DNA of 32,000 nucleotides from Promethearchaeota archaeon (GCA_030606485.1 JAUWGH010000003.1:90001-122000); one strand, 5' to 3'; counted from the first letter of the stretch, positions 4,953 to 24,532 are shown. Made by a program: numbers and translations. The notes: generated by a model not told the origin, from the sequence alone.

Positions 4953-5047
4953 TTCCACAAATTATGAGAATTTTAAATCTATAAAGATTTATTAAATCTT
5001 AAGTTAATATATAACATAGCGATACAATTAAACAAATTTGATATAGT

Positions 5048-5587: not shown

Positions 5588-5590
5588 AAA

Positions 5591-8026: not shown

Positions 8027-11000
8027 TTACCAATATGGCATTTCGCCATTATGATATTCATTTAATGATTTAATGGATATTTTTCTTTCTCGAATCTGTT
8101 CAATTGCATTAAATATTGCATATGCTAATTGCAGATTTATTATAACTGGGATATTATATTCCACTGCAAATCTACGAATTTCATACTCATCTTCCATTAT
8201 TCTCTTATATTTTTCTGCTTCCATTGCAATTGTTGGGATGTTTATTACCATGTTAATTTTTCCTTCTCTTATATAAGTTAAGATATTCGGAAATTCTCCA
8301 ATTTCTTTTACTTTTAATAATTTAAAGTTTGATATTCCTGCAGATTCAAGAGCTTTTGAAGTATGTTCTGTCGCATAAATTGAAAAACCTAAAGATTTGA
8401 TTTTGCGAGCTAAAGGAATAATATCCTTCTTAAGTTTTTCTCCACCAACTGTAATTAAAATATTACCATTCTCAATAGGAATTTTTAAATCGGTTGATTC
8501 TAATGCTTTTATTAAAGCATCAGGAAAATCATCTCCAATACATGCAACTTCTCCTGTTGATGCCATCTCAACACCCAAAACAGGGTCGGCTCCATCTAAG
8601 CGCATAAATGAAAATTGGGGGCATTTAATGGTCACGAAATTTCCAGTTGGTATATTCATTATTTTTGGATCAATTTTTTTTCCAAGAATGACTTCAGCAG
8701 CAATTTTCATAAGATTAATTCCGCGAGCTTTTGAAACTAGAGGCATAGAACGGCTTGAGCGCAAATTACATTCTATAACATATAATTTCCCTTCTTTTAA
8801 TAAATATTGGATATTAAATGGTCCCCTTATTTTTAATGCTAAAGCGATTTTTTTCGATATAGAGATTAAATTATCAATAATATCATTAGATATTGTCTGA
8901 GGGGGGATTGCCATTGTTGCATCTCCACTATGTATCCCAGCATTCTCAATATGTTCAATAATCGCACCTATAAATACAGTCTCACCGTCGCTAACACCGT
9001 CACATTCAATTTCACGTGAGTCGGTAAAAAATTTTGTGATAACAACTGGATTATCTTTAGATACTTTAGAAGCGATATCTAAAACGTGCCGTAAGGTTTG
9101 GGGATCATGTGCTACTCTCATTGCAGCACCACTTAATACGAAAGAAGGTCGAACTAACACAGGGTATCCAATTTCCTCTGCAAATTTTAACACTTCATCT
9201 TTTTCCTCAAGACTATTCCATATAGGTTGTAATATTGCTAAGTGATCAAGTAGGGCACTAAATTTTTTCCTATTTTCTGCGTTATTGATACTAATCCCTT
9301 GAGTACCTAATAATCTGAGATTAGTTTTTCTAAAAAACTCATTATATTTTTGGATTTTAACCGCTAAATTATTTGCAATTTGACCACCAACCGATACAAC
9401 TACACCATAACCTTTTTCCTTCTCGCAGATATCTACAACACGTTCGCCCGATAATTCTTCGAAATATAATTTATCTGAAATATCATAATCAGTTGAAACC
9501 GTTTCAGGATTATAATTAATCATAATTACTTGATCAACATTTAATTCCTTGAGTTTCCATACCATATTAACGCAACACCAATCAAATTCTACAGAAGAAC
9601 CGATTCTATAAGTTCCTGAGCCTAAAACAATTATTTTTTGAAGGTTCTCAGTGGTTTCTTTTTCATAATCAATATCATCTTCCATTGCAGAATATGTAAG
9701 ATAAAGATAATTTGTTTGTGCTGGCCATTCAGCTGCCAGTGTATCCATCTGATTTGTATAGGGAATTATATTATATCTTTTTCGAAGTCGTCGAATAGTG
9801 ATTGTATCAAGCCCCATTATTGTTGCTATTTGTCCATCTGAAAACCCAAAACGTTTCGCCTTTCTTAACTGATATTCTTTTTCTTCATCTGAAGACCTAA
9901 GAAGATTTAATCTTTTCAATTCTCTTTCTATATTTATTATATTTTCAATTTTATGGAGAAACCATTTATCAATTCGCGATAAACGGTAAATTTCATTGAT
10001 GGAAATTCCTTTTTTAATAGCTTCCGCCACTCTAAAAATTCTTTTATCCGTTGGATGCCTTAATTCATTCTTTAATTCATTATAATTATCAATTGGTTCT
10101 AAGTCATTACCAACAATTCCTTTCATATCGATATCCAACATTCTTATTGCTTTTTGTAATACTTCTTCGAAAGTTCGTCCAATTGCCATAACTTCTCCAA
10201 CTGATTTCATTTGTGTTCCAATGTGTCTATCTACTCGTCGAAATTTGTCTAAATCCCATCGGGGATATTTTAAAACTATATAATCAATTGAAGGTTCAAA
10301 ACATGCCGTTGTAATACCAGTTACAGTATTTTTTAATTCTGTTAACAGATATCCCAGTGCTAATTTAGTAGCAAAATAGGCTAAAGGATAACCTGTTGCT
10401 TTTGAGGCAAGTGCAGATGAGCGAGACAACCTTGCATTTATTTCAATTGCTTGAAATTCTTTTGATATTGGATTTAATGCATATTGAATATTACATTCTC
10501 CAATAATACCCAAGTTTTGAACAACTCTTATTGATGCACATCTCATCATTTGATATTCTTCATTTGTTAGTGTTTGAGTGGGAGCAACAACAATGCTCTC
10601 TCCAGTATGTATCCCCATAGGATCAACATTTTCCATACTACAATTAATAATACAATTGTTAGATACATCTCTAACAACTTCAAATTCGATTTCTTTCCAT
10701 CCCCACACTGATTCTTCTACTAAAATTTGATGTATTATTGATTGAGCTAACGCTCTTTTCGCAAATACTTCAAATTCTTTTAGATTTTCAACAATACCTG
10801 ACCCTCTACCACCTAATGTATATGCAACTCGAATCATTAATGGAAAACCCAATTCTTCTGCTGCTTTCAATGCATCTTGATAATTATCTACTGCAAAACT
10901 TTTAGGGCAAACTACACCAGATTTTTCCATTGCTTTAACAAATAAGTCTCTATCTTCAGTTGCAATTATTGCTTCGACAGGTGTTCCCAATACTCTTACA

Positions 11001-11335
11001 TTATATTTTTCCAATATTTTCTTTTCTGCTAATTCAACACCGATATTTAATGCTGTTTGACCACCAAATGATAATAAAATCCCATCAGGTCTTTCTTTTT
11101 TAATTACTTTTTCAACATAACGCATATTAATTGGGAGTAAATATATTCTATCTGATAATTGGGGATCAGTTTGAATTGTCGCGATATTTGGGTTTATTAA
11201 AATAGTATAAATTCCTTCCTCCTTAAGTGCCTTTAATGCTTGAGAACCAGAGTAGTCAAATTCACCTGCTTGACCAATTTTTATTGAACCTGAGCCTAGT
11301 AATAACACCTTTTTTATTGTATTATCAAAAGGCAT
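8027..11335 (-). CDS. carB: Carbamoyl-phosphate synthase large subunit
   Basis: IGQAGEFDYSGSQA, duplicated ATP-grasp domains (GIHTGES / GIHSGDA), RLSRSSALASKATG, C-terminal MGS-like domain; 1102 aa. Confidence 0.98.
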   Translation of the reverse strand: MPFDNTIKKVLLLGSGSIKIGQAGEFDYSGSQALKALKEEGIYTILINPNIATIQTDPQLSDRIYLLPINMRYVEKVIKKERPDGILLSFGGQTALNIGVELAEKKILEKYNVRVLGTPVEAIIATEDRDLFVKAMEKSGVVCPKSFAVDNYQDALKAAEELGFPLMIRVAYTLGGRGSGIVENLKEFEVFAKRALAQSIIHQILVEESVWGWKEIEFEVVRDVSNNCIINCSMENVDPMGIHTGESIVVAPTQTLTNEEYQMMRCASIRVVQNLGIIGECNIQYALNPISKEFQAIEINARLSRSSALASKATGYPLAYFATKLALGYLLTELKNTVTGITTACFEPSIDYIVLKYPRWDLDKFRRVDRHIGTQMKSVGEVMAIGRTFEEVLQKAIRMLDIDMKGIVGNDLEPIDNYNELKNELRHPTDKRIFRVAEAIKKGISINEIYRLSRIDKWFLHKIENIINIERELKRLNLLRSSDEEKEYQLRKAKRFGFSDGQIATIMGLDTITIRRLRKRYNIIPYTNQMDTLAAEWPAQTNYLYLTYSAMEDDIDYEKETTENLQKIIVLGSGTYRIGSSVEFDWCCVNMVWKLKELNVDQVIMINYNPETVSTDYDISDKLYFEELSGERVVDICEKEKGYGVVVSVGGQIANNLAVKIQKYNEFFRKTNLRLLGTQGISINNAENRKKFSALLDHLAILQPIWNSLEEKDEVLKFAEEIGYPVLVRPSFVLSGAAMRVAHDPQTLRHVLDIASKVSKDNPVVITKFFTDSREIECDGVSDGETVFIGAIIEHIENAGIHSGDATMAIPPQTISNDIIDNLISISKKIALALKIRGPFNIQYLLKEGKLYVIECNLRSSRSMPLVSKARGINLMKIAAEVILGKKIDPKIMNIPTGNFVTIKCPQFSFMRLDGADPVLGVEMASTGEVACIGDDFPDALIKALESTDLKIPIENGNILITVGGEKLKKDIIPLARKIKSLGFSIYATEHTSKALESAGISNFKLLKVKEIGEFPNILTYIREGKINMVINIPTIAMEAEKYKRIMEDEYEIRRFAVEYNIPVIINLQLAYAIFNAIEQIRERKISIKSLNEYHNGEMPYW

Positions 11336-12481
11336 CTATTTTAGAACCCCCATAAATTTTAAAAACATATCAAATAGAAATGCTTGAGTATCTTTAGGTC
11401 CTGGAGATGATTCGGGATGAAATTGAAGGCTAAAAATAGGTTTAGTTTTATGGATAATCCCTTCATTTGTTTTATCATCAGGATTGTAAAAGAATTCCTT
11501 AAAGCTTACTTCTTCCAAATTATCAGTATTAATTCCATATCCATGATTCTGAGTAGTAATAAAGCATCTTCCCGTTGGATTATGGATTACTGATTTATTT
11601 GCTCCTCGATGTCCAAATTTAAGTTTATAAGTTTTCGCTCCAGCACCTAAACCAATTATTTGATCACCCAAACAAATTCCCATTGTAGGAATAGAATTTT
11701 CGATTAAATTTTCAGCAACTTCAATTGCACTTTTACATTTCAAGGGATCTCCCGGTCCATTTGAAATTAGAACACCGTTTGGATTATAATCCATGATTTG
11801 GTCATAACTAAAATCATGGGGCAGTAAAATTACATTCAAATTTCTTTTCAACAAATTTCTTATAATATTAAGTTTAGTGCCCAAATCTAAAACAATCACA
11901 GTCCCAATAGGATTTGAGGGAGTGAAATGTCTTGCTCTTACAGTAGAAACTTCACTAACTAAATCTTTATTATTTGGATCTGAAATTTCTTTAACTTCCT
12001 CTTTTATTAGTTTGATATCTGGTTTTTCACCAGGGTTAAATACTTGCAATAATCCTAATTTTACTCCTTCATCTCGAATTATCTTAGTTAAAGCCCTAGT
12101 ATCAACCCATTCAATTCCAGGGACGTCTTGTTCTTGAAGAAAATCGTCTAAAGATTTCACACTTTCATAGTGACTAGGTATCTTACAATATTCATTTACT
12201 ACTAATCCTTTAATTTTAATACTATCTGACTCGAAGCATTTATGTATTCCATATTCATCCTTTATCCAATCTGGAACACCATAGTTTCCAATTAAGGGAT
12301 AAGTCATAATACATATTTGTTCATGAAAAGAGGGATCTGTAATAGTTTCATTATAACCGACCATACTGGTTGTAAATACTATTTCTCCACAAACCTTTTT
12401 TGTAGCCCCAAATCCAATTCCTTCAAAATATCTTCCATCTTGAAACATTAAAATTGCGGGACGGTCATTCTTTAAATGCAT
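11336..12481 (-). CDS. carA: Carbamoyl-phosphate synthase small (glutaminase) subunit
   Basis: GEIVFTTSMVGY, TYPLIGNYGV, SNGPGDP, GICLG (catalytic Cys), QNHGY, QFHPE; TAG stop abuts the carB ATG. Confidence 0.97.
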   Translation of the reverse strand: MHLKNDRPAILMFQDGRYFEGIGFGATKKVCGEIVFTTSMVGYNETITDPSFHEQICIMTYPLIGNYGVPDWIKDEYGIHKCFESDSIKIKGLVVNEYCKIPSHYESVKSLDDFLQEQDVPGIEWVDTRALTKIIRDEGVKLGLLQVFNPGEKPDIKLIKEEVKEISDPNNKDLVSEVSTVRARHFTPSNPIGTVIVLDLGTKLNIIRNLLKRNLNVILLPHDFSYDQIMDYNPNGVLISNGPGDPLKCKSAIEVAENLIENSIPTMGICLGDQIIGLGAGAKTYKLKFGHRGANKSVIHNPTGRCFITTQNHGYGINTDNLEEVSFKEFFYNPDDKTNEGIIHKTKPIFSLQFHPESSPGPKDTQAFLFDMFLKFMGVLK

Positions 12482-12517
12482 TTTATCCCTCTATAACTCA
12501 TTTCTCAATATTTTTTT

Positions 12518-14074
12518 TTACTCATATTCAATTGTAGATGGAGGTTTATTGGATATATCAAATACTACTCTATTGAATCCCTTAACCTCATTAATAATTC
12601 TTGTTGAAATTTCTTCTAATAAATTCCAATCAATTTTAGCAAAATTAGCAGTCATAGCATCTATGCTTTGAACTGCTCGAATTGCACAAATATATTCATA
12701 TGTTCTATGATCTCCCATAACTCCAACTGTTTTTATTGGAAGGAATACCGGAAATATTTGCCAAATATCATCATAAATCCCAGCATTTTTAATTTCTTCT
12801 TGAATTATTTGATCAGCTTCTCTTATCATACTTAATTTTTCCTCATCAACAGGACCGACACACCTTACGGCTAATCCAGGACCAGGAAATGGGTGTCTTT
12901 TTATTGATTCTTCGGGTAATCCAAGTTCTATACCTATTTTTCTAACTTCATCTTTATATAAATCTTTAAGTGGTTCAATTATATCAAAATTTAATTTTTC
13001 TGGCAAGATTACATTATGATGAGATTTAATTTTTGAAGCAAATTTACTTGTAGCTTTAGATTCGACTCGATCAGGATATATTGTTCCTTGTGCTAAAAAT
13101 TTAATATTTGGATATTTGGTTTCTAATTCCTTAGTTTTTTGTTCAAAAACTTCAATAAATGAGTTTGCAATTATTATTCTTTTTTTTTCAGGATCAGATA
13201 CTCCCTTAAGGCGCTTCATAAATAAGTTCTTTGCATCAATATAATGAAAATTTTTAAATTTTAACGTTCTTTTGAAAAATTCTTGGACTTCTAATTCCTC
13301 GTTTTTACGTAATAAATTATTATTTACAAAAATACAGTGCAATTTATCACCAATAGCTTGATGGAGTAATATTGCAGTGACTGATGAATCTACACCTCCA
13401 CTCAGTCCTAAAATAACCCTATTGTCTCCTACTTCTCCTCTGATCTTATCAATTGTATGTTCAATCCAATTTTCTAATTTCCATTCTTTTTTACATTTGA
13501 CTATTTTAAATAAAAAATTGGAAAATATTTTTTCTCCACTGATAGTATGCTTTACTTCTGGATGGAATTGCACTCCGTATATTTTGAGTTTTTCATTTCC
13601 ATAAGCTGCAATTGGACAATTATCAGTTCTTGCTAAAACTTGAAATCCTGAGGGAAGATCTAGCACTTGGTCTAAATGAGACATCCATACAGTTTCTTCG
13701 TCTAATAAAAGTTCGAATAATCCCTTATGTTCAAGAACATGTAATATTGTCTTTCCATATTCTTTACTTTCCCTCGGCTCGATTTTCCCACCAAGATGGT
13801 GAATTATTAAATGAAAACCATAACAAATTCCTAAAATTGGAATTTTATTCTGGTGTATAAATTTATAAATATTCTCAGATAGCTTGAGAGAATCTTCCGA
13901 ATATACACTACTGGGACCTCCAGATAATATTATCGCTTTAGGTTCAATACTGTTAATTTTTTTAAAATCAATATCATAAGGAAAAACTTCAGAGTAAACA
14001 TTTAAATCTCTTATTCTTCTAGCAATTAGGTGGCTATATTGACCTCCAAAATCAAGAATTATAACTGTATCCAT
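12518..14074 (-). CDS. guaA: GMP synthase (glutamine-hydrolysing), single-chain GATase + ATP pyrophosphatase
   Basis: LDFGGQY, GICYG, QFHPEV, LGLSGGVDS, IKSHHNV, RHPFPGPGLAVR, KPPSTIEYE. Confidence 0.98.
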   Translation of the reverse strand: MDTVIILDFGGQYSHLIARRIRDLNVYSEVFPYDIDFKKINSIEPKAIILSGGPSSVYSEDSLKLSENIYKFIHQNKIPILGICYGFHLIIHHLGGKIEPRESKEYGKTILHVLEHKGLFELLLDEETVWMSHLDQVLDLPSGFQVLARTDNCPIAAYGNEKLKIYGVQFHPEVKHTISGEKIFSNFLFKIVKCKKEWKLENWIEHTIDKIRGEVGDNRVILGLSGGVDSSVTAILLHQAIGDKLHCIFVNNNLLRKNEELEVQEFFKRTLKFKNFHYIDAKNLFMKRLKGVSDPEKKRIIIANSFIEVFEQKTKELETKYPNIKFLAQGTIYPDRVESKATSKFASKIKSHHNVILPEKLNFDIIEPLKDLYKDEVRKIGIELGLPEESIKRHPFPGPGLAVRCVGPVDEEKLSMIREADQIIQEEIKNAGIYDDIWQIFPVFLPIKTVGVMGDHRTYEYICAIRAVQSIDAMTANFAKIDWNLLEEISTRIINEVKGFNRVVFDISNKPPSTIEYE

Positions 14075-14340
14075 TTTAATTTAAAATTATTCTGTATAAG
14101 GCGATATTTACTTAATATTGTTAGCTTGATATCACTAATATTTTCTTATTATAAATTATATCCTAATAAAAGATTAATAATTAACTCGTTTTAACACAAT
14201 TTAATAAAAATATGAAACTTTAACCAAAAATTACAGTTCAAAATCATTATAAAGAGAAATAAAGCTAATCAGATGACAATCTATTCTTAATATAAAAATT
14301 TTAAAATATATTAAAAATTCATGAAAAATATTGAGAATTT

Positions 14341-15666
14341 TTATAATTTTTTAATATATCTATCAAATTCCCAATTAGAAACAACTTTCCTGTATAAATC
14401 AAATTCTTCTAATTTAGCCCAGAGAAAATTTCTGAATGGTCTATCACCAAAAACTCTTTTCATAAGTTCACTCTTTTCATATTCTTCAAGTGCTTCATAA
14501 AGATTCGCTGGAAGTGCCTTAATTCCTCTTTTTTTCATTTCTTTTGTAGAGATTTTATACACATTGAAATCACTAGGTTCTGGTGGCTCAATCTTTTGCT
14601 TTATCCCTTCTAATCCCGTTGCCAATAACACTGAAAATTGTAAATATGGATTTCCTGCAGGATCAGGACATCGTATTTCACATCGAGCTCCCGACTTAGT
14701 TGGAAAGCTTGGTACGCGAATTAATGGAGATCGATTCTTAAAACCCCACGCTAAATAAATTGGCGCTTCATAACCGGGAACTAAACGTTTATATGAGTTT
14801 GGCCAGCTGCACAAAACAGCACACATTTCCCTCCCATATTTTATTTGCCCTCCAACAAAATATTTCATAGTTTGGGAGATATGATTCTCATCATTTTCAT
14901 CATAAAAGATATTTTCTCCATTTTTCCATAAAGATTGATGTACATGCATCCCAGAGCCATTGATATTTTGGAAAGGTTTTGGCATAAAAGATGCGATACA
15001 ATTATATTGTGCTGCTACTACTTTTACAATCATTTTTAGCCAAACCGTATGATCTGCAGTTTTTAAGGCTGTATCATATTTAAAATCAATCTCATTTTGT
15101 CCTTCTGCAACCTCATGGTGTAATGTTTCGATTTCAATTCCGTATCCTTTCGCATACTCAGCCATATCTCTTCTCATTTTTTCGTCTATAAGATGTGGGT
15201 CATAATCAAAATATCCGCGTAAATCTCTAGGCTTGATTGCTTCCTCTTCATTTAATATGAAAAATTCTAATTCTGGCGCACACATAAATTCGTAGCCCAT
15301 TTCTTGAACTTCTTTATAGGTTTTTTGAAGAATATATCTCGGATCTCCTTCAAATCTTTTACCATCAGGTTCATATATATCGCATATAAATCCACATTCA
15401 TCTATTTTAGGAGAATTCCATGGAATGATGTGAAAAGTAAATGGATCTGGAATTGCAACCATATCAGATTCCTCTATTGAGCCATACCCAGTAATTGATG
15501 AACCATCGAAATTTTCCCCTTCTTTTAATATTGATTCAATTCGATTAATATTAACTCCAAAGCTTTTTACAATCCCATTAATTTCAGTGAATTCTAAACT
15601 TGCAAATTTTATCTCTTGATCTTCTATGATTTTTAGAATCTCTTCAATTTTTTCTTCTCTTTTCAT
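14341..15666 (-). CDS. glnA: Glutamine synthetase type I (likely GSI-alpha)
   Basis: FDGSSI, HHEVAEGQNEIDF, MPKP...NGSGMHVHQSL, NSYKRLVPGYEAP, NRSPLIRVP, EIRCPDPAGNPYL; 441 aa. Confidence 0.96.
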   Translation of the reverse strand: MKREEKIEEILKIIEDQEIKFASLEFTEINGIVKSFGVNINRIESILKEGENFDGSSITGYGSIEESDMVAIPDPFTFHIIPWNSPKIDECGFICDIYEPDGKRFEGDPRYILQKTYKEVQEMGYEFMCAPELEFFILNEEEAIKPRDLRGYFDYDPHLIDEKMRRDMAEYAKGYGIEIETLHHEVAEGQNEIDFKYDTALKTADHTVWLKMIVKVVAAQYNCIASFMPKPFQNINGSGMHVHQSLWKNGENIFYDENDENHISQTMKYFVGGQIKYGREMCAVLCSWPNSYKRLVPGYEAPIYLAWGFKNRSPLIRVPSFPTKSGARCEIRCPDPAGNPYLQFSVLLATGLEGIKQKIEPPEPSDFNVYKISTKEMKKRGIKALPANLYEALEEYEKSELMKRVFGDRPFRNFLWAKLEEFDLYRKVVSNWEFDRYIKKL

Positions 15667-15752
15667 AAGTTACACGCAAAAATACTTTATCTTATATCTT
15701 AAAATAGTAAGAGAGATTTAATAAAAAATTGGTAATTAATTTATAAATTAAC

Positions 15753-17435
15753 CTATTTTTTATTTTTATAGTTTATTGATGCTTTTATGAATGCTGTGTA
15801 GCAAGGAGAGGGAGCATACGGTTTACTTTTGAATTCTGGATGGAACTGCACCCCAACCATCCAATGATCTTCACGATTTAATTCAATACTATTAATAATT
15901 TCTCCAGTTTCATCTCTACTTGAAATTATTAATCCCTTTTGCTTAGTATCATCATCAATGTATTTTTCAATTATATGATATCTGTGACGAAATCGCTCAA
16001 TTATTTCTTCAGTTTGATATGCATCATATAATCTCGTATCTTTTTTTACCTTTATTTTTAGCCCACCTAATCTCATCGTGCCCCCTTTTGATTTGATTTT
16101 TTTCTGACTTTCAAGCAAATCAATAACTGGATAAGGTGTATTTTGGTCTATTTCTGTCGAATTTGCGTTTTTCAAACCTAAATATTTTCTGCAAAATGCA
16201 ATGAAAAATAATTGAGCTCCAAAACAAACACCCAAATAAGGGACTTTATTTTCCATTGCAAATTCAGCTGTTTTTATCATCCCTTCTACTGCTCGCTCCC
16301 CAAATCCGGGTGTTAATAAAATTCCATCGCATTCTTTTAATTCCTTTTCAATATCTGTTTCTTCTGTAATATTGATCATTTTCAAATTTGCAATGTATCC
16401 TTCATGAGCTGCAGCCTGTTCTAATGCACTATTTATTGAAATGTAGGAATCAGAAATGTTAAAATATTTTCCAGGCATACCAATTGTAACTGTTTCTTTT
16501 GTATTTTTATAAAGATTAACCATTTTTTGCCATTCAGAATAATTATTAACTGTACTATAAGTTACTAATTTTGCTTTCAGGTCTAAGAGTTCACATAAAT
16601 AATCTCCTAATTTTTGATCTTCAAATAATAAAGGAAGTTCATAAACCACATCTAAATCAGGATCTGAAATTACTGCTTCTAATGGAACATTTGTAAATAA
16701 TGAAATTTTTTCCTTAATTTTATTATCTAAAGGTTTGCTTGATCTACCGATTAAAACATCAGGCTGTAAACCAGCAGCTTGTAAAGCCTTAACTGAGTGT
16801 TGAGTAGGTTTTGTTTTATGTTGCATAATAACACTAGAATATGGAATCAAAGTAACATGAATTAGAGCAATGCTTCTTTTTGATAATTCCAGTCTTAATT
16901 GTCGAAAACTTTCTAAAAATATCTGAGACTCAATATCTCCAACAGTTCCTCCACACTCTACTAATAAAACATCTAAATCCTCCTCACCTGCAATTTTTCT
17001 TAATCGATCCTTTATAATATTCGTACAATGAGGAATTATTTGAACAGTTCTTCCAAGGAATTTACCTTCTCTTTCTCTTAAAATAGTTGAAAGATAAATC
17101 TGTCCAGAGGTAATATTATGAGAAGGATGAATATTTTCGCCCCAAAATCTTGAATACGAACCAAAATCCTGGTCAATTTCTGATATTCTATAAATATATT
17201 CATCTGAAGTAGGTACAGGTTTAAAATCCCAAACTTGTTCGGTGACAAAGCATTCTCCATGTTCAATGGGATTGAGTGTTCCAGGGTCTACATTTAAATA
17301 GGGATCGATCTTTACGCCAGAGATTTTAAACCCTCGAAATTGAAATAATTTTCCCAAACTAGCAGTTACAATGCCTTTACCAATCCCTGACATAACCCCC
17401 CCTGTAACAAACACGAATTTACAATTAGATTGCAT
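15753..17435 (-). CDS. pyrG: CTP synthase
   Basis: FVTGGVMSGIGKG, KIDPYLNVDPGT, ECGGTVGDIES, KTKPTQHSV, GVCFG, GGTMRLG, RFRHRY, QFHPEF. Confidence 0.97.
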   Translation of the reverse strand: MQSNCKFVFVTGGVMSGIGKGIVTASLGKLFQFRGFKISGVKIDPYLNVDPGTLNPIEHGECFVTEQVWDFKPVPTSDEYIYRISEIDQDFGSYSRFWGENIHPSHNITSGQIYLSTILREREGKFLGRTVQIIPHCTNIIKDRLRKIAGEEDLDVLLVECGGTVGDIESQIFLESFRQLRLELSKRSIALIHVTLIPYSSVIMQHKTKPTQHSVKALQAAGLQPDVLIGRSSKPLDNKIKEKISLFTNVPLEAVISDPDLDVVYELPLLFEDQKLGDYLCELLDLKAKLVTYSTVNNYSEWQKMVNLYKNTKETVTIGMPGKYFNISDSYISINSALEQAAAHEGYIANLKMINITEETDIEKELKECDGILLTPGFGERAVEGMIKTAEFAMENKVPYLGVCFGAQLFFIAFCRKYLGLKNANSTEIDQNTPYPVIDLLESQKKIKSKGGTMRLGGLKIKVKKDTRLYDAYQTEEIIERFRHRYHIIEKYIDDDTKQKGLIISSRDETGEIINSIELNREDHWMVGVQFHPEFKSKPYAPSPCYTAFIKASINYKNKK

Positions 17436-17916
17436 TTTAACTTCAATTACTTCGTTTCAATATTAATTATAAATAAAATATTTATTATATTTCCTTTCTT
17501 TTCAATCTTTTCTAATAAAATTTATTCACATTATTATGTTATTTATCTTATTTATTTTAAGAAAGAAATTCTAAAATAAAATAAAGGCTTGATTTATTTT
17601 TTAATATTTCTCTTTCAATATTGTAAAACCAATAACTGAAGTTGGAATTAGTGGAGTTTCCCACAGTTTTCCCACTTGTTTAGTAAGTATGTATTGTTGA
17701 TACTTTTTCTAAATTTAATTTTAAATAGGCATATACGTGCTTGATATTTCTTGAATTGCTATAGGAATCATATTAAAAAATATTTTCTATAGTGTAAAAT
17801 TAAAAAAAATTGACAATTTTTATTTTTTTAAGTTAAAATTGAATTTTTCATTTTTTTTAAATATTAGATTTCAATTTTTAAAATAAAATAGAAAGGTTAA
17901 ATTTAATTTAATATTA

Positions 17917-18837
17917 TTGAAACTTAAGAGAAATAGAAATTGGTATATAAGAATGCCATATAAAATTTTAGAAAAAAGAGAATTGGGAGAGAGCGGTATC
18001 GTATTTGAAATGGTATTGGAAACTCCATTCATTGCCAAAAAAGCCTATGCTGGTAATTTTGTTTTAGTTCGAATTAATGAAACGGGAGAGCGGATTCCTT
18101 TGACAATAGCTGATTATGATAGAGATAAGGGAACAATAACAATAGTAGTTCAAATTGCTGGAAAAAGTACAAAATTACTTTTCCATCAAAATGTTGGAGA
18201 TTCGATTCTTGATGTTGTTGGTCCCTTAGGAAATAAAATTCACATTAAAAAATATGAATATCCCGTTGTGATTATTGGAGGTGGAGTGGGAATAGCACCT
18301 TGTTACCCGCAGGCAAAGGAATTAAAAGAAGTAGGAAATAAAATTATTTCAATATTAGGCGCCAGAAATAAGGAGTTGTTATTTTGGAGAGATAAAATGG
18401 GATCTGTAAGTGATGAATTAATTATTTGTACAGATGATGGATCAGAGGGGATAAAAGGTGTTGTAACAGAACCATTAAAGGATTTATTAAAAAGAGAAAA
18501 ATTGAGTATTGTAATTGCCATTGGACCATTAATTATGATGAAATACGTGGCTCTTACAACTAATGGTTTTGATGGATTACCTAAAGTTAAAACAATTGTA
18601 TCCTTAAATACAATCATGATTGACGGTACTGGAATGTGCGGCGGTTGTCGTTTTCCAACAATTGATGGAAAAATAGGATTTGCATGTGTTGATGGACCTG
18701 ATGTTGATGGACATATTGTGGATTTTGATAATCTTTTAAAGCGTGCAAAAAGATTTGAAACGCAAGAAAAAGAATCACTAGAATTATATGATCGTGAATG
18801 TAAAGCATTAAAAAAATTTTATAAGGAGAATGGTTAA
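17917..18837 (+). CDS. NfnA/SudB-type subunit (FAD/NAD-binding, [2Fe-2S]); probable true start ATG 17953
   Basis: GERIPLTIAD, DVVGPLG, IGGGVGIAP, TDDGS, DGTGMCGGCR...CVDGP; overlaps the next gene by 8 nt. Confidence 0.92.
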   Translation: MKLKRNRNWYIRMPYKILEKRELGESGIVFEMVLETPFIAKKAYAGNFVLVRINETGERIPLTIADYDRDKGTITIVVQIAGKSTKLLFHQNVGDSILDVVGPLGNKIHIKKYEYPVVIIGGGVGIAPCYPQAKELKEVGNKIISILGARNKELLFWRDKMGSVSDELIICTDDGSEGIKGVVTEPLKDLLKREKLSIVIAIGPLIMMKYVALTTNGFDGLPKVKTIVSLNTIMIDGTGMCGGCRFPTIDGKIGFACVDGPDVDGHIVDFDNLLKRAKRFETQEKESLELYDRECKALKKFYKENG

Positions 18838-21568
18838 AATGGAAAAAGTATCACCTTTAATTGAAGTTTTAATCGATAATAAACAGAAAATTCTCAATTC
18901 TAAGAAATATAATGAGGTTGAGTTTGAAGAATTTATTAATTCTCTGATGCAAGCTGAAAATGAAAGAGAGAAAGTTTTGAAAAAAATAAAGGAATTGGTA
19001 AGAATTGATATCCAAAAATTAAAAGAAGAATTAAAAATTTCTGAAGAAAGATTAATTTATGATATCGAATATTTAAAGGAATTAGGATTATTGGAGTTTA
19101 TTGGAGAGATATCTGAATTTTATCAAAGTATCGAAGAAAAGAATGAGAAGGAAGGACTATTTCCAAATGTCTCTATAATAAGGGAGAAAAAAATTTGTAG
19201 TGGTTGTGGGTTATGTGTTTCGATTTGTCCGACTAATGCAATAAATTTCTTAAATGACATCTTAATTATTGATGATGACTTATGCATCAATTGTGGTTTA
19301 TGCTACGCTTGTTGTCATCGCTCATTTTTTCCCAAAGAGTTAAAGACAGATCAAGAAAAACTCGATTCTGATAAAAAATATTTGAAGGAATTTAATAACT
19401 ATAGGGAAATCTATTCAGCACAAACAAAAGATGATCTTATTAGAAAAGTTGCACAAGATGGGGGAATTGTCACAACATTACTAAAAACCGCGTTTAAACA
19501 GAAAATAATTGATGCCGCTTTAGTAGTCGATGTATCAGAAAAACCACATGAGCCTTTACCTCTTTTGATTGAAAAGGAAGAAGATTTATTAAAAAGTGCG
19601 GGGACAAAATATAGTAATGCTCACACATTAAAAATTTTACAAGATTCAAGAAAATTCAAGAAAATTGCAGTTGTAGGAACTCCTTGTGTTTTGGAGGCTC
19701 TCAGAAAAGTTTCAGTTTATCCACTTAATGAACCCTTTTATAATAATATTGCGTTAAAAATAGGATTATTTTGTATGGAATCATTTGATTATGAAAAGAT
19801 ACTTGATATTTTAAAGAATGAATTTCTTACTGAAGGTCAAATGAATACCGAAGAAATTAAAAAAATGGACATCAACAAAGGACGGTTCATTATTTACAAA
19901 AAAAATGGAGATTCACTAGATATTCCGATAAAAAAGATAAAAAAATATGGTCGATTTGGATGTTTTTTATGTGATGATTTAACTTCTGAGCTTTCTGATC
20001 TTTCTGTTGGGTCAATTGGATCTGAACCGGGTTGGTCTACAATTATTACAAGAACAAGTAAAGGAGTGGATTTATTTCAGCAAGCTTTTAATCTGAAATT
20101 AATCGAACAGAAAAAAATTGAAGAGGACAGTAAAAGTTTTATAACTTTAAGTAAAATTGCTAAATCCAAATTAAAAATGTATAAAGAAATTCCGAGACAA
20201 AAAATGATTGAACAAGACCCAAATGTAAGAAAAAACAACTTCCAGGAGGTCCCAAAAGGATATACACTAGAAATGGTAAAATTAGAAACTCAAAGATGCT
20301 TACAATGTGGAAATCCTTTATGTATTGAGGGTTGTCCCGTTAATGTTGATATTCCAAAATTTATAAGATTTTTAAGACAAGAGAAATTTTCTGATGCCAT
20401 CAATAATGTAAAAACATATAATTTATTACCAGCAATATGTGGGAGAGTGTGCCCTCAAGAAATACAATGCGAACAAACATGTTTATTAGGTTCTGTTTCA
20501 AAACCAATTGCAATTGGTAACTTAGAACGATTTATTGCTGATTGGGACCGAGCAAATGAACTTAAAGCATGTCCTGATTGTCAAGCTCCAAAGAATATTA
20601 AAGTAGGAATCATTGGCGCAGGTCCTGCAGGTTTAACTTGCGCCGGGGAGCTTTTAATGAGAGGATATGATGTAACAATTTTTGAAGCATTTCATACGGG
20701 AGGAGGTGTGCTAGTTTATGGTATACCAGAATTTAGATTACCAAAAGACATAGTTAGAGAAGAAATCGAAACATTAAAAACATTAGGAGGCAAAATAGAA
20801 TACAATAAGATAATAGGAAAGATAATGACTATAGAAGATTTAAAATCTATGGGGTTCAAGGCTTTCTTTATTGGAGTGGGTGCAGGACTACCTACATTTA
20901 TTAGAGTAAACGGTTTAAGCTTAAATGGTGTTTTAACGGCAAATGAATTTCTTACAAGAGCAAATTTAATGAAAGCCTATAAATTTCCAGAATATGATAC
21001 ACCTATTAAAATAGGAAAAATTGTAACAGTTCTTGGAGGGGGAAATGTAGCCATGGATTCAGCAAGAGTTGCATTGAGATTAGGTGCTGAAAGAGTAATT
21101 GTTGTGTATAGGAGATCTGAAAAAGAAATGCCTGCAAGGAGAGCAGAATATCATCATGCGATTGAAGAAGGAATTGATTTTCAATTTTTAACCAATCCAG
21201 TGAGCTTTATTGGAGATGAAAATGAAAATGTTAAGCAAATGGAGGTTATTAAAATGAGATTAGGAGAACCTGATGATTCTGGGCGACGACGCCCTATTCC
21301 AATTGAAGGTTCAGAATATAAAATAGATACAGATACGATAATTATAGCAATTGGGTCAAAAGCAAATCCTATTCTTACAAATTCAATCCCTGAGTTAAAA
21401 CTTAATAAGTGGGGTTATATTGAAACCGGTGAGCATGGAAAGACAAATCTGGAAGGTGTTTATGCGGGTGGAGATATTGTGACTGGTAGTGCGACAGTTA
21501 TTTCAGCAATGGGAGCAGGAAAGAGAGCTGCAGCTGAGATTGATAGTTATCTTACAGAAAAGATATAG
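18830..21568 (+). CDS. Fusion protein: wHTH-like + 2x[4Fe-4S] + F420-binding FrhB domain + NfnB/SudA (GltD-like) flavoprotein
   Basis: CSGCGLCVSICP and CINCGLCYACC; FrhB motifs AQDGGIVT, GTKY, VVGTPC, IGLFCMESF, CFLCDD, SVGSIGS, GWSTIITRT; from about aa 456 RCLQCGNPLCIEGCP, CGRVCPQEIQCEQTC, IGAGPAG, GGGNVAMD, YRRS, GGDIVTG. Confidence 0.9.
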   Translation: MVKMEKVSPLIEVLIDNKQKILNSKKYNEVEFEEFINSLMQAENEREKVLKKIKELVRIDIQKLKEELKISEERLIYDIEYLKELGLLEFIGEISEFYQSIEEKNEKEGLFPNVSIIREKKICSGCGLCVSICPTNAINFLNDILIIDDDLCINCGLCYACCHRSFFPKELKTDQEKLDSDKKYLKEFNNYREIYSAQTKDDLIRKVAQDGGIVTTLLKTAFKQKIIDAALVVDVSEKPHEPLPLLIEKEEDLLKSAGTKYSNAHTLKILQDSRKFKKIAVVGTPCVLEALRKVSVYPLNEPFYNNIALKIGLFCMESFDYEKILDILKNEFLTEGQMNTEEIKKMDINKGRFIIYKKNGDSLDIPIKKIKKYGRFGCFLCDDLTSELSDLSVGSIGSEPGWSTIITRTSKGVDLFQQAFNLKLIEQKKIEEDSKSFITLSKIAKSKLKMYKEIPRQKMIEQDPNVRKNNFQEVPKGYTLEMVKLETQRCLQCGNPLCIEGCPVNVDIPKFIRFLRQEKFSDAINNVKTYNLLPAICGRVCPQEIQCEQTCLLGSVSKPIAIGNLERFIADWDRANELKACPDCQAPKNIKVGIIGAGPAGLTCAGELLMRGYDVTIFEAFHTGGGVLVYGIPEFRLPKDIVREEIETLKTLGGKIEYNKIIGKIMTIEDLKSMGFKAFFIGVGAGLPTFIRVNGLSLNGVLTANEFLTRANLMKAYKFPEYDTPIKIGKIVTVLGGGNVAMDSARVALRLGAERVIVVYRRSEKEMPARRAEYHHAIEEGIDFQFLTNPVSFIGDENENVKQMEVIKMRLGEPDDSGRRRPIPIEGSEYKIDTDTIIIAIGSKANPILTNSIPELKLNKWGYIETGEHGKTNLEGVYAGGDIVTGSATVISAMGAGKRAAAEIDSYLTEKI

Positions 21569-21608: not shown

Positions 21609-22457
21609 TTAAGTATAGTTTAAGAAAATACTGAATAAAGGTTTTTCAAGGTTTAATTGCTGTAATTGATTCCAATTATTTAAGAGATAAGGATATAGCT
21701 CTTCGCTAAAGGCATCTAAAGCTTTCTCATTTCCGAGTTCATAAAATATAAAATTTTTCATCATTTTCACAATATCAAGAAATACTCTTGGTATTGTTTG
21801 CGGATCTGCAATACTCACGTTAATATTTAAAATATTCCAACCATGCTCTTTTGAAAACTTGATCTTAGATAGTTCCTTATCTTTATCTGATTGAATTGCT
21901 TCTATAAATCTAGAATAGAAATTCTCGATATTTCTATAAATACGCTCTGTTCTAAATCCAGAGATATATTTCTCAATTACAGTAGCACAAATATTCAAAA
22001 TCTGTTGAAATACTCCCAGTGAGTCAAATAAAATTCCATAAGATTCGATTTTTTCGGTTTCTTTCCATTGAACCATAAACTCATCGATTTGATCTCCATA
22101 AGATTTAAATGGTTTGACAAAACCTTTCCATTTTTCTTTCCATTCAGATGATGTTTTAGCATAATGAGAAAGAAAATCTTTCTTAATTACAATTAATCGA
22201 GCTCTAAGAATTTCAGCATGAGTTTCTTTCTTATCTGCTGCAATAAATAACAGATTAAATTCTGGAGCATGACTATATACCCATTTAAGGCCACTCATAT
22301 CAATAGATTCAATCCCAGACTGATCAAGCTCGTGTTTAGAAAATAAATTTAATGCTGTTAGAAGGCCTGATACTAAATCTTCATCAATTTCTAATCCAAG
22401 GGAATCTTTATATAAAATTGTAACTCCTGATTCACTGTCAACAATCCAAATATTCAT
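21609..22457 (-). CDS. Longin-like domain protein with C-terminal helical region
   Basis: N-terminus IWIV-DSESG-VTILY...DEDLVSGLLTALNLF...IESIDMSGLKWVY...LLFIAA fits the beta-beta-alpha-beta-beta-beta longin pattern common in Asgard proteins. Confidence 0.6.
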   Translation of the reverse strand: MNIWIVDSESGVTILYKDSLGLEIDEDLVSGLLTALNLFSKHELDQSGIESIDMSGLKWVYSHAPEFNLLFIAADKKETHAEILRARLIVIKKDFLSHYAKTSSEWKEKWKGFVKPFKSYGDQIDEFMVQWKETEKIESYGILFDSLGVFQQILNICATVIEKYISGFRTERIYRNIENFYSRFIEAIQSDKDKELSKIKFSKEHGWNILNINVSIADPQTIPRVFLDIVKMMKNFIFYELGNEKALDAFSEELYPYLLNNWNQLQQLNLEKPLFSIFLNYT

Positions 22458-23671: not shown

Positions 23672-24532
23672 TTATTCAAGTGGGATTTCTTTTTCCATTA
23701 ATTTAACTTTCTTCATTAAGTACTGCTTGGCATTATGTGGAATTCTTACTACAGAATCATTTGATTTTTCTATTTCTCTCACTTCATCACAAAGTTGTGC
23801 AGCAGTCCTCATCATTTCATGGGCGGCAGCTAATAAAGGCATATATTCTGTTTTGTCTTTTAATACAAAACATGCTCTACCTGTTAATTTAGAAACTTGA
23901 CTTGCTAATTCGAAGGCTGCTATAGCTTTTGCTTTAGCATAAGGATTTGAAAACTCGGCTGCCTCTGTAGCCATTGCGCTATCTATTATTATTTGAGGTA
24001 ATGTTGGGTACCTTCCTTCTAACATGTCCATGATTACTTTATTAAGTTCTTTTGTAATTATTGTTAAAACTCCTGTTATAGCTAATACTTTTAAAAGATC
24101 TGCATTAAAAGCACTCATTTCGATTGGATCTAAAAATGGTCTGCGGGCCCCAATCATACTATCACAATTTATTAAAATATATCCCATATTTTTTTCTTTT
24201 ATTTCATCTATTGCTTTTTTTGCCGGGGCATCCGAAATTATAATTGTAGGAATTCCTTTCGCCAATTCTCGTGCGGCTTGTGGGCCCTTGAGAGCAGCAT
24301 TTGGACTTGACATTATAATTAATTCAGGTTCAAATTCAAGTAATTTTTTCATAGTTTCTATACAATGTTCAGGGGGATGCATTTTAGCTCCAGATGTTAC
24401 TTCTCTAACATCAATTTTAGTGCCTTCAGCTCTTTCGTCCATTAAAAATGCAAGAAGTAGTGATGAGCCTATCGTCCCATTCTTCAAAATTCCGATTTTT
24501 AATATTTTTTCTTCCGACATCTTATTTTGCAC
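23672..24532 (-). CDS. mtd: F420-dependent methylene-H4MPT dehydrogenase
   Basis: KIGILKNGTIG, MDERA, SGAKM, SPNAALKGP, IISDAP, MIGARRPFLDPIEM, FNADLLKVL, FSNPYAKAKA, AAAHEMMRTAA, RIPH. Confidence 0.93.
   Translation of the reverse strand: MQNKMSEEKILKIGILKNGTIGSSLLLAFLMDERAEGTKIDVREVTSGAKMHPPEHCIETMKKLLEFEPELIIMSSPNAALKGPQAARELAKGIPTIIISDAPAKKAIDEIKEKNMGYILINCDSMIGARRPFLDPIEMSAFNADLLKVLAITGVLTIITKELNKVIMDMLEGRYPTLPQIIIDSAMATEAAEFSNPYAKAKAIAAFELASQVSKLTGRACFVLKDKTEYMPLLAAAHEMMRTAAQLCDEVREIEKSNDSVVRIPHNAKQYLMKKVKLMEKEIPLE

What the first reader, a model, noticed from the sequence alone, without database searches (positions are those of the whole stretch)
17917..21568. Nfn-type electron-bifurcating transhydrogenase with a covalently fused ferredoxin-FrhB (F420) module
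Seen: an NfnA/SudB gene overlaps a 912-aa ORF. Its last ~457 aa are a complete NfnB/SudA (two Fe-S motifs, FAD GAGPAG, NADPH-type GGGNVAMD/YRRS). Its N-terminal half carries two [4Fe-4S] motifs plus an intact FrhB domain with four cluster Cys (GTPC, LFC, CxxC). Known: NfnAB couples NADPH oxidation to NAD+ and ferredoxin reduction, with low-potential electrons leaving through the N-terminal clusters of NfnB, and FrhB-fold domains are FAD/F420-reacting modules. Inference: the FrhB module is attached at the ferredoxin-exit side, so this could be an F420H2/NAD(P)H/ferredoxin bifurcating or confurcating hub. F420-dependent mtd about 2 kb away shows the organism uses F420. This is the best candidate for an undescribed system in the window.
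Basis: partly seen in the sequence, partly recalled or inferred. Interest (0 to 1): 0.9.

Follow-up and report, generated by a model that had tools for sequence, protein, structure and literature searches.

The report
Nfn enzyme with fused F420 module
An uncultured Asgard (Lokiarchaeia-type) archaeon encodes an ordinary NfnA subunit next to an NfnB subunit that carries a fused ferredoxin domain and an F420-reductase (FrhB) domain. This probably links NADPH, NADH and coenzyme F420 in one enzyme, but nobody has assayed it.

Summary
Window 17917-18837 encodes a bona fide NfnA.

All 20 cluster cysteines and the flavin and NADPH motifs are invariant in 25 homologues. The fusion is real: it appears in about 33 of 71 sampled genomes of one Asgard family, and contigs from an independent study bridge the junction. 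Outside that family it was not found.

In that family most genomes have either the fused or a canonical NfnB, rarely both. The genome makes F420 and has F420-dependent Mtd, but no Fno, FrhA or GltB was detected.

My best reading is an Nfn-type complex whose ferredoxin exit is hard-wired to an F420 oxidoreductase, as in Fsr and the F420-reducing CODH/Fwd of Ca. Ethanoperedens. F420 reactivity, the wiring distances and the direction of the reaction are all untested. The structure models were uninformative.

I found no paper describing it. This scan had already noted the same architecture in other genomes. I class it as a new variant of a known kind, of moderate to high interest.

The parts
17436..17952 (.). 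AT-rich divergent intergenic region between pyrG (minus strand) and nfnA. It presumably holds the promoter of the nfnA-fusion pair.
   Evidence: ORF map. GC is 0.257 in window 17001-18000. Sequence read. The promoter was not mapped.
17953..18837 (+). nfnA, the NfnA/SudB-type small subunit (FAD, NAD(H) site, [2Fe-2S]). The ORF opens at TTG 17917, but the likely start is ATG 17953, giving 294 aa.
   Evidence: NF004862 367 bits, above the cut-off of 220. 5JCA_S 289 bits and 4YLF_A 254 bits; the alignment starts at M13. Homologues in L026 and L027 are 294 aa.
18839..21568 (+). The fusion gene: wHTH-like domain, 2x[4Fe-4S] ferredoxin domain, FrhB and NfnB. The ORF opens at ATG 18830 (912 aa). The likely start is ATG 18839 (909 aa), 1 nt after the nfnA stop and 10 nt after GGAGA.
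18830..19165 (+). N-terminal domain (residues 1-112): a long helix plus a winged-helix/HTH-like bundle. It is conserved in all fusions and in two stand-alone FrhB paralogues. Its role is unknown; it may be a docking or adaptor piece.
   Evidence: Conserved columns in A1 and A2. AF2 pLDDT 84. Foldseek gave only weak HTH matches, E>1. phmmer hit to the paralogue at C1:59164-60645.
19166..19339 (+). Ferredoxin-type domain with two CxxCxxCxxxC[P/H] motifs (C123/126/129/133 and C152/155/158/162).
   Evidence: Pfam Fer4 families. All eight Cys are invariant. [quoted passage not shown]
19388..20194 (+). FrhB-type FAD/[4Fe-4S] domain (residues ~187-455), the putative F420 oxidoreductase. Cluster Cys are 286, 315, 378 and 381.
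   Evidence: PF04422 75 bits and PF04432 139 bits. FrhB structures 6QGR_B, 3ZFS_C and 4OMF 176 bits. NF006807 259 bits against a cut-off of 269. Signature residues are invariant.
20195..20227 (+). Short join between the C-terminal helix of FrhB and NfnB. It lies inside the low-confidence stretch of the model (residues 452-473).
   Evidence: pLDDT <50 for residues 452-473. A contig from an independent study covers 19946-20748.
20228..20560 (+). NfnB N-terminal cluster domain (Fer4_20), carrying the proximal and distal [4Fe-4S]. Cys are 490/493/498/502 and 537/541/547/551.
   Evidence: PF14691 135 bits. Alignment to 4YLF_B. The Cys are invariant.
20561..21568 (+). NfnB FAD (GAGPAG) and NADPH (GGGNVAMD...YRRS..EMPAR) domains, running to the stop codon.
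   Evidence: PF07992 and PF00070. Residue-by-residue alignment to Tm and Pf NfnB.
23672..24532 (-). Context only: F420-dependent methylene-H4MPT dehydrogenase (Mtd). It is a consumer or producer of F420H2 and is not in the same operon.
   Evidence: PF01993 363 bits.

Best explanation
NfnA and the fusion protein form an NfnAB-type flavin/iron-sulfur complex. In it, free ferredoxin is replaced, wholly or partly, by a built-in chain.

Shown: all cofactor motifs of NfnA ([2Fe-2S], FAD), of NfnB (bifurcating-type FAD, NADPH site, proximal and distal [4Fe-4S]), of a 2x[4Fe-4S] ferredoxin domain and of an FrhB domain ([4Fe-4S], FAD signatures) are intact and conserved.

Inferred electron path: NADPH -> NfnB FAD. 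One electron then goes to [2Fe-2S] -> NfnA FAD -> NAD+. The other goes to the proximal and distal [4Fe-4S] -> the two clusters of the fused ferredoxin domain -> the FrhB [4Fe-4S] -> FrhB FAD, which collects two electrons and passes a hydride to F420.

Net reaction: 2 NADPH + NAD+ + F420 <-> 2 NADP+ + NADH + F420H2. This is close to equilibrium under standard conditions, so the enzyme would act as a reversible balancer of the three hydride pools.

The organism makes F420 and needs it for Mtd (and for Mer-like enzymes), yet no Frh hydrogenase or Fno was detected. The likely physiological role is therefore to connect F420 to NAD(P)H, most plausibly by NADPH-driven F420 reduction.

The N-terminal winged-helix-like domain is probably a docking or oligomerisation piece rather than a DNA binder.
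For: - Domain anatomy and scores.
- All 20 cluster Cys and the FAD and NADPH motifs are invariant in 25 full-length homologues of 59-95% identity.
- The nfnA-then-fusion gene order is kept in loci of 63% and 59% identity.
- The fused ORF occurs without stops in about 33 of 71 sampled genomes of the family. About 27 others carry an unfused NfnB of 466-526 aa, and only one genome (G138) has both. The fused form therefore seems to stand in for canonical NfnB.
- The fused NfnB parts form one clade (SH-like support 96) next to unfused Asgard-type NfnBs.
- In the own genome this is the only NfnA-partnered NfnB.
- F420 biosynthesis genes are present, and CofD is found in 69 of 71 family genomes.
- In a 100%-complete genome no Fno was found (best 26 bits vs cut-off 150), no FrhA equivalog (150 vs 392 bits) and no GltB.
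- Published precedent exists for exactly this plug-in. An N-terminal ferredoxin domain plus an FrhB-like F420 reductase docks at the ferredoxin site of CODH and Fwd and makes them reduce F420 (PMC11493965). The same module order is fused N-terminally to a reductase in Fsr (PMC10229431).
- The low-potential electrons of Nfn leave via the distal cluster of NfnB (PMC5861303).
Against: - There are no biochemical data on any member.
- F420 binding cannot be read from sequence. No F420-bound FrhB-type structure is described in the paper I read.
- The FrhB part misses the NCBIfam equivalog cut-offs for FrhB and FpoF.
- The inter-domain geometry is unknown: AF2 pTM is 0.51 with a disordered join.
- F420 is not a low-potential acceptor, so routing the energetic electron of a bifurcating flavin to it looks wasteful, and a simpler Fno would do the job.
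- The genome has 12 FrhB-family hits with varied partners, so other routes to F420H2 exist.
- The role of the conserved N-terminal domain is unexplained.
Confidence: 0.5

Rival explanations
1. The enzyme is a non-bifurcating F420H2:NAD(P)+ oxidoreductase. Electrons simply pass between the FrhB flavin and the NfnB flavin through the five [4Fe-4S] clusters, in either direction. NfnA is a second, optional NAD(H) port or a structural partner, and there is no obligatory 1:1 split.
For: F420, NAD and NADP have nearly equal potentials, so no energetic coupling is needed (established values; PMC5861303). No Fno was detected in the genome, so some enzyme must fill that role. GltD/NfnB-like modules serve as plain NAD(P)H input modules in other fusions, for example HdrA-GltD (PMC12054007).
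Against: The NfnB part is about as close to bifurcating T. maritima and P. furiosus NfnB as orthologues are (565 and 498 bits). It keeps its NfnA partner in every locus examined, and NfnA is equally well conserved. The either/or pattern with canonical NfnB suggests that the Nfn reaction core is retained.
Confidence: 0.17
2. The FrhB-like module does not react with F420. It would be an FAD/[4Fe-4S] module for another substrate or partner, or only an extended wire. The complex would then remain ferredoxin-dependent or serve an unknown acceptor.
For: The FrhB family includes members that work with ferredoxin and not F420, such as HCAR (5DQR appears as a distant hit). The domain is below the equivalog cut-offs of FrhB (226 vs 331.5) and FpoF (159 vs 475). 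F420 contacts are undefined.
Against: The domain is about six times closer in score to F420-reactive proteins (176, 162 and 143 bits) than to HCAR (30 bits). The FrhB signature residues are invariant. The whole family makes F420 and has F420-dependent Mtd. Every biochemically tested archaeal member with the Fd-domain plus FrhB architecture uses F420 (PMC11493965, PMC10229431, PMC3448663).
Confidence: 0.13
3. The pair is one module of a larger Hdr-type super-complex. The winged-helix-like N-domain would dock the FrhB-NfnB/NfnA unit onto HdrC-NfnB-HdrB-like or MvhD/HdrA-like proteins, so the real reaction would involve a further substrate such as a disulfide.
For: The same N-domain occurs in stand-alone FrhB paralogues. 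One lies tail-to-tail with an HdrC-NfnB-CCG fusion gene, and another sits in an operon with an HdrD-like Fer4+CCG gene. The N-domain also occurs in FrhB+MvhD fusions (P0271, P0272). In L026 an HdrC-NfnB-CCG gene lies directly upstream of nfnA. Earlier scan note e1-3113647 reads the domain as an adaptor.
Against: In this window and in L027 no Hdr-like gene is adjacent. NfnAB is a self-contained enzyme in all characterised cases. No interaction was tested.
Confidence: 0.15
4. The protein is the electron-donating small subunit of a glutamate synthase, as public annotations say ('NADPH-dependent glutamate synthase'). It would possibly be F420-dependent (FGltS-like) and matched to the nearby glnA.
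For: Sources name homologues as glutamate synthase small chain. glnA lies 2.2 kb upstream on the other strand. F420-dependent glutamate synthases with FrhB-like subunits have been proposed (PMC3448663), and FrhB+PF01645 fusions exist (P0273-P0278).
Against: No GltB catalytic domain was found in a 100%-complete genome; the best PF01645 hit is 26 bits over 45 positions. The GltD models fall below their cut-offs (TIGR01317 237 vs 448; TIGR01318 357 vs 483), whereas the NfnB/SudA-type model TIGR01316 passes. The partner gene is NfnA, not GltB. The glnA neighbourhood is not kept in L026 or L027.
Confidence: 0.03

Closest known systems
[quoted passage not shown]
   Same: Both subunits are present as adjacent genes. 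The NfnB part scores 565 and 498 bits and the NfnA part 254 and 289 bits against these structures. All cluster, FAD and NAD(P)H motifs are kept.
   Different: The large subunit carries about 455 extra N-terminal residues (wHTH-like domain, 2x[4Fe-4S] domain, FrhB). They sit on the side where ferredoxin normally docks, so F420 is the presumed partner instead of, or as well as, ferredoxin.
Zeta subunit (F420 reductase) of the F420-reducing CODH/ACDS and Fwd complexes of Ca. Ethanoperedens thermophilum (8RIU, 8RJA; PMC11493965)
   Same: The module is the same: an N-terminal 2x[4Fe-4S] ferredoxin domain followed by an FrhB-like FAD/[4Fe-4S] domain. It aligns over residues ~118-449 at 158-162 bits. 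The principle is also the same: a ferredoxin-dependent enzyme is converted to F420 by plugging the module onto its ferredoxin site.
   Different: There it is a separate subunit on CO- and formylmethanofuran-oxidising enzymes of a euryarchaeal alkane oxidiser. Here it is covalently fused to NfnB in an Asgard archaeon, with an additional wHTH-like domain. Its activity is unproven.
Fsr, F420H2-dependent sulfite reductase of Methanococcales (7NP8, 7NPA; PMC10229431)
   Same: The domain order in one polypeptide is the same: ferredoxin domain, then FrhB-type domain, then a C-terminal catalytic half. The score is 140-143 bits. The electron relay runs through five [4Fe-4S] clusters.
   Different: The C-terminal half is a siroheme sulfite reductase, not a flavoprotein. 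In Fsr the wiring depends on dimerisation, which could not be examined here.
HdrA-NfnB (GltD) insertions in ANME-1 and Bathyarchaeia (PMC9012536, PMC12054007)
   Same: An NfnB/GltD module is fused into another iron-sulfur flavoprotein at a ferredoxin domain, and this is proposed to change the electron carrier used.
   Different: The partner there is HdrA, not FrhB, and no NfnA partner or F420 module is part of the same polypeptide.
[quoted passage not shown]
   Same: Fno catalyses the simple F420/NADP exchange that this enzyme may take over. FGltS is another proposed pairing of an FrhB-type subunit with a normally NAD(P)H- or ferredoxin-dependent enzyme.
   Different: Fno is a small, cofactor-free Rossmann protein with no homology, and it was not detected in this genome. 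FGltS needs GltB, which was not found here.

Membership tests
NfnAB (NfnB/SudA-type large subunit) | Fer4_20 domain with two [4Fe-4S] motifs, plus FAD and NADPH dinucleotide-binding domains, scoring as the NfnB/SudA/'GltA' type rather than GltD. | tested here: met
   TIGR01316 565 bits, above the cut-off of 471.75. The GltD models are below their cut-offs. 4YLF_B 565 bits over the full length. The Cys and the GAGPAG and GGGNVAMD/YRRS motifs are conserved.
NfnAB | An adjacent, co-oriented NfnA (PyrK-like FAD/NAD, Asp+3Cys [2Fe-2S]) partner gene. | tested here: met
   NF004862 367 bits. 5JCA_S 289 bits with the cluster motif kept. The gene order is conserved in L026 and L027.
NfnAB | Free ferredoxin as the low-potential partner, and the bifurcating stoichiometry 2 NADPH : 1 NAD+ : 2 Fd. 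| not testable with these tools
   This needs enzyme assays. The architecture suggests that the ferredoxin site is occupied by the fused domains.
FrhB/FdhB/FpoF family (F420-reactive FAD/[4Fe-4S] subunits) | FrhB_N and FrhB_C domains above the Pfam thresholds, with four cluster Cys and the family signature residues. | tested here: met
   PF04422 75 bits (cut-off 22) and PF04432 139 bits (cut-off 23.3). C286, C315, C378 and C381 are invariant, Q209 and T215 are invariant, and G211/G212 are nearly invariant, along with other signature residues. The alignment to the FrhB structures shows them shared.
FrhB/FdhB/FpoF family | Orthology to a characterised member (equivalog cut-offs of FrhB, FpoF). 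| tested here: not met
   TIGR03289 226 vs 331.5. NF006807 259 vs 269. NF040616 (FpoF) 159 vs 475. It is a distinct subfamily, not FrhB or FpoF proper.
FrhB/FdhB/FpoF family | Binding and turnover of F420. | not testable with these tools
   No F420-bound structure defines the contacts (PMC10229431). Indirect support comes from cofG/H/D/E being present and from F420-dependent Mtd.
Plug-in F420-reductase modules (Fsr N-half; zeta subunits of F420-reducing CODH/Fwd) | A 2x[4Fe-4S] ferredoxin domain directly N-terminal of the FrhB domain, attached to an otherwise ferredoxin-linked redox enzyme. | tested here: met
   8RJA_E, 8RIU_B and 7NP8_A align from the ferredoxin domain through FrhB. The module is fused to NfnB.
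Plug-in F420-reductase modules | A continuous cluster chain within electron-transfer distance between the module and the host enzyme. | tested here: inconclusive
   The full-length AF2 model has pLDDT 71 and pTM 0.51, with the join below 50. No coordinates or reliable domain packing were obtained.
Glutamate synthase (GltBD / FGltS) | A GltB catalytic subunit (PF01645) in the genome, and a GltD-type small subunit. | tested here: not met
   The best PF01645 hit is 26 bits over 45 positions in a 100%-complete genome. TIGR01317 and TIGR01318 are below their cut-offs.

The most novel reading that the evidence does not exclude
This would be the first flavin-based 'bifurcating' enzyme in which the branch that normally reduces ferredoxin is hard-wired to coenzyme F420. 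That would give a three-pool NADPH/NADH/F420H2 coupler. It would be a main route by which many Lokiarchaeia charge or discharge F420 for their H4MPT Wood-Ljungdahl pathway, given that no Frh or Fno was detected. Its winged-helix domain would act as a docking handle shared with other FrhB/MvhD/Hdr modules.
Probability: 0.35. Interest if true: 0.75.

Novelty: new variant of a known kind. Interest (0 to 1): 0.62.

Why it matters
[quoted passage not shown] They carry an F420-dependent H4MPT pathway and make F420. In this genome I detected neither of the two textbook F420-coupling enzymes, Frh and Fno.

A conserved Nfn variant with a built-in F420 module is a concrete, testable candidate for that missing link. 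If F420 really takes the electron that Nfn normally sends to ferredoxin, this would break the rule stated in 2018 that the second acceptor of flavin-based bifurcation is 'to date always' ferredoxin or flavodoxin (PMC5861303). It would also extend the newly recognised habit of archaea of rewiring ferredoxin enzymes to F420 (PMC11493965).

There is a practical point too. These proteins are publicly annotated as 'NADPH-dependent glutamate synthase', which is almost certainly wrong.

Tried and rejected
- Full-length AlphaFold2 model from 25 sequences: pLDDT 71, pTM 0.51, join disordered. It was too poor to judge domain packing or cluster distances.
- Complex prediction of the FrhB module (113-455) against the NfnB part (456-912): no verdict (score 0.00). 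It is not evidence either way.
- Foldseek of the N-domain model against the PDB: no match with E<=0.001. Only weak HTH/winged-helix rows appeared, with E>1, so the fold label stays tentative.
- RNA evidence: one metatranscriptome contig (X20, 571 nt, 20197-20767, 27 differences) comes from a relative and starts at the junction. It shows neither transcription of this gene nor a fused transcript. The other RNA runs held next to none of the words. Run X7 gave only short pieces.
- Assembly artefact: rejected. The fused ORF occurs in many genomes, and contigs of an independent study bridge both boundaries.
- Glutamate synthase reading: rejected for this genome.
- Conserved downstream neighbour: the 282-aa ORF at 21609-22457 is unrelated to the 286-aa ORF after the gene in L026.
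- mtd and glnA linkage: not kept in L026 or L027.
- F420-contact residues: I looked for a published list, but the Fsr paper reports no bound F420.
- Literature: ten full-text searches combined FrhB, NfnB, Asgard, Lokiarchae, F420, Nfn, FGltS, Prometheoarchaeum, GltD, SudA and PDB codes. None found a description of an FrhB-NfnB fusion. Subscription-only papers (for example Sousa 2016, Spang 2019) were not searchable.

Full report
**What is there.** The window has about 30% GC. It lies in a 3.75-Mb, 13-contig, 100%-complete genome. The close relatives of its proteins that carry organism names are almost all named Promethearchaeota, Lokiarchaeota or Hermodarchaeota. The same DNA occurs in cold-seep and marine-sediment metagenomes of several studies. 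Two co-oriented ORFs fill 17917-21568.

The first ORF (P0002) is an NfnA/SudB-type subunit. It scores 367 bits against NF004862, 289 bits against the small subunit of P. furiosus NfnI and 254 bits against T. maritima NfnA. The Asp/Cys [2Fe-2S] motif is kept. The structure alignment and the 294-aa homologues put its real start at ATG 17953.

The second ORF (P0001, 912 aa) has these domains by Pfam:
- a 2x[4Fe-4S] ferredoxin domain (about 116-165)
- FrhB_FdhB_N (194-270)
- FrhB_FdhB_C (277-432)
- Fer4_20 (467-577)
- Pyr_redox_2 (591-897)

Its last 457 residues score 565 bits against T. maritima NfnB over the whole length and pass the TIGR01316 cut-off. The GltD models fail their cut-offs.

A GGAGA at 18824-18828, and the fact that homologues start at the equivalent of M4, suggest that translation starts at 18839. 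That is one base after the nfnA stop. Two corrections apply: the likely starts, and an overlooked N-terminal domain of about 112 residues.

**The N-terminal domain.** Residues 1-112 are conserved in all fusions. They are recognisably homologous to the N-termini of two stand-alone paralogues in the same genome, which have the architecture N-domain, ferredoxin domain, FrhB (C1:59164-60645 and C10:154564-156018). The domain also occurs in FrhB+MvhD fusion proteins.

AlphaFold2 gives a confident helical model (pLDDT 84) with a long helix and a small bundle. Foldseek finds only weak winged-helix/HTH matches with E>1. One related protein carries a precomputed HTH_DeoR hit. I call the domain winged-helix-like and its role unknown.

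**Is the fusion real, and how widespread is it?** An alignment of 25 full-length homologues (59-95% identity) shows every one of the 20 cluster cysteines invariant, together with the FrhB signature residues and the NfnB FAD and NADPH motifs.

- A search of 301 genomes of the phylum, using a query that spans the junction, found uninterrupted ORFs of about 850-940 aa only in the window's own family. None was found in the 29 other families sampled.
- In a sample of 71 genomes of that family, about 33 have the fused form and about 27 have an unfused NfnB of 466-526 aa (61-75% identical). Only one genome has both.
- A scan of 1.84 billion representative proteins returned a single full-length representative plus two N-terminal fragments. 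All other top hits matched the NfnB part only. None of the ten long ones that I checked has an FrhB domain.
- Searching with the FrhB part among longer proteins found no other FrhB+NfnB architecture. Other FrhB fusions do exist: with MvhD, with the glutamate-synthase catalytic domain, with DUF362, and with a pyruvyl transferase.
- On a FastTree of NfnB parts, the fused proteins form one clade (SH-like support 96) with one 522-aa unfused sequence nested inside. Its sisters are unfused NfnBs. This fits one fusion event, with possible later loss.
- Contigs from an independent study bridge both the nfnA/fusion boundary (17800-19338, 3 differences) and the FrhB-NfnB junction (19946-20748, 6 differences).

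An assembly artefact is excluded.

**What the FrhB part resembles.** By sequence it is closest to true FrhB of F420-reducing hydrogenases (176 bits). Next come the zeta subunits of the F420-reducing Fwd and CODH complexes of Ca. Ethanoperedens (162 and 158 bits, aligned from the ferredoxin domain onward), then Fsr (about 140 bits). It is far above F420-dependent formate dehydrogenase beta subunits (51-68 bits) and the ferredoxin-dependent relative HCAR (30 bits). It misses the equivalog cut-offs of FrhB and FpoF, so it is its own subfamily.

Lemaire et al. showed by structure and assay that a ferredoxin-domain plus FrhB-like subunit docks on the ferredoxin site of CODH and Fwd and makes them reduce F420 (PMC11493965). 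Fsr has the same module fused N-terminally to its catalytic half, with a relay of five clusters (PMC10229431). In NfnAB the low-potential electron leaves through the distal cluster of the N-terminal domain of NfnB (PMC5861303). The module is fused at exactly that end here.

**Genomic context of F420.** The genome encodes CofG with an adjacent CofH-like gene, CofD and CofE. CofD is found in 69 of 71 family genomes. F420-dependent Mtd lies 2.1 kb away on the other strand, and two Mer-like LLM-family genes exist below the Mer cut-off.

With the models used I found the following:
- no Fno (best 26 bits against a cut-off of 150)
- no FrhA equivalog (150 against 392 bits), and neither [NiFe] large-subunit gene lies next to an FrhB gene
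- no GltB

This is the only NfnA-partnered NfnB in the genome. The two other NfnB-like genes are HdrC-NfnB-HdrB-type fusions.

**Most likely mechanism.** The cofactor sites are shown; the electron path is inferred. NADPH reduces the NfnB flavin. One electron goes through [2Fe-2S] and the NfnA flavin to NAD+. The other passes the two NfnB clusters, the two clusters of the fused ferredoxin domain and the FrhB cluster to the FrhB flavin, which hands a hydride to F420 after two rounds.

The sum is 2 NADPH + NAD+ + F420 = 2 NADP+ + NADH + F420H2. The three couples have similar standard potentials (about -320, -320 and -340 to -360 mV). The reaction would therefore be near equilibrium and reversible. 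With the usual high NADPH/NADP+ ratio and low NADH/NAD+ ratio, it would run towards F420H2. That product is what the reductive H4MPT pathway needs.

This energetic argument is my inference. It also marks the weak point of the 'bifurcation' label: a low-potential electron would be spent on a mid-potential acceptor.

**Rivals.**
- A plain F420H2:NAD(P)+ oxidoreductase without obligatory splitting.
- An FrhB-like module that does not use F420.
- Membership in a larger Hdr-type assembly through the N-domain. Supporting this, Hdr-like and NfnB-like genes recur next to FrhB paralogues, and in L026 one lies directly upstream of nfnA.
- The annotated glutamate-synthase role, which the lack of GltB and the NfnA partner argue against.

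**What could not be settled.** The full-length model was poor (pTM 0.51) and the complex prediction gave no verdict. F420 contacts are not defined in the literature I could read. The RNA data were too thin to show expression.

**Novelty.** Ten full-text searches found no description of an FrhB-NfnB fusion. The nearest published cases are HdrA-NfnB insertions, FrhB paralogue expansions in ANME-1, and the putative F420-dependent glutamate synthases. Subscription-only Asgard metabolism papers could not be searched.

This scan has already reported the same architecture in other Lokiarchaeial genomes, with the same reading (e1-4887001, e1-2086388, e1-3113649, e1-5004519). Those are AI notes, not independent evidence.

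I add four results here:
- the either/or pattern with canonical NfnB
- the restriction to one family and one 50%-identity cluster
- the failure to detect Fno, FrhA and GltB in a complete genome

I class the finding as a new variant of a known kind: NfnAB carrying an Fsr/zeta-type F420 plug-in.

Noticed in passing
G000:C10:151712-154495 and G000:C12:77832-80597 (outside the window); L026:2213-4972: Two 921-927 aa proteins fuse an HdrC-like 2x[4Fe-4S] domain, an NfnB/GltD-like flavoprotein (46% identical to the NfnB part here) and two HdrB-type CCG domains. One lies tail-to-tail with the stand-alone wHTH-Fd-FrhB paralogue C10:154564-156018. In a relative (L026) the same kind of gene sits directly upstream of nfnA.
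   Followed up: partly
L030 (G000:C1:50001-66000), ORFs 4365-5858(-), 9164-10645(+), 10663-11775(+), 11801-12976(+): Three FrhB-family genes cluster here. Two of them are in a row with an HdrD-like Fer4+CCG gene. A Gtr1/RagA-type small GTPase gene (3375-4286, minus strand) lies nearby. The genome has 12 FrhB_C hits in all.
   Followed up: partly
G000:C5:253268-254753: A [NiFe]-hydrogenase large-subunit ORF (435 aa) is followed, across an in-frame TGA, by a stretch that matches the C-terminal end of the FrhA model. This may be a selenocysteine-containing hydrogenase.
   Followed up: no
proteins P0096, P0097, P0099, P0102 (626-635 aa): These are shorter relatives that hold only the FrhB_C half plus NfnB. 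One sits on a 177-kb contig. They may be split genes, miscalled starts or a truncated variant.
   Followed up: no
proteins P0117, P0119, P0121, P0128 (594-604 aa): The unfused NfnBs that are sister to the fused clade carry a different N-terminal addition of about 140 aa. It is rich in CPHC/CxxC pairs and looks like a zinc ribbon. This is another appendage on the ferredoxin-exit side of NfnB.
   Followed up: no
proteins P0273-P0278 (~800 aa): These are single polypeptides joining an FrhB domain to the glutamate-synthase catalytic domain (PF01645). They are fused forms of the putative F420-dependent glutamate synthase.
   Followed up: no
window 8027-17435 (minus strand): pyrG, glnA, guaA, carA and carB lie in a row, divergent from nfnA. 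I confirmed pyrG, glnA and guaA by Pfam. The proximity of glnA to the 'glutamate synthase'-annotated gene appears coincidental.
   Followed up: partly
G273, G077, G141, G213 and G279 (tandem at G279:C211:65369-70546): Several relatives carry two copies of the fusion gene, in one case in tandem.
   Followed up: no
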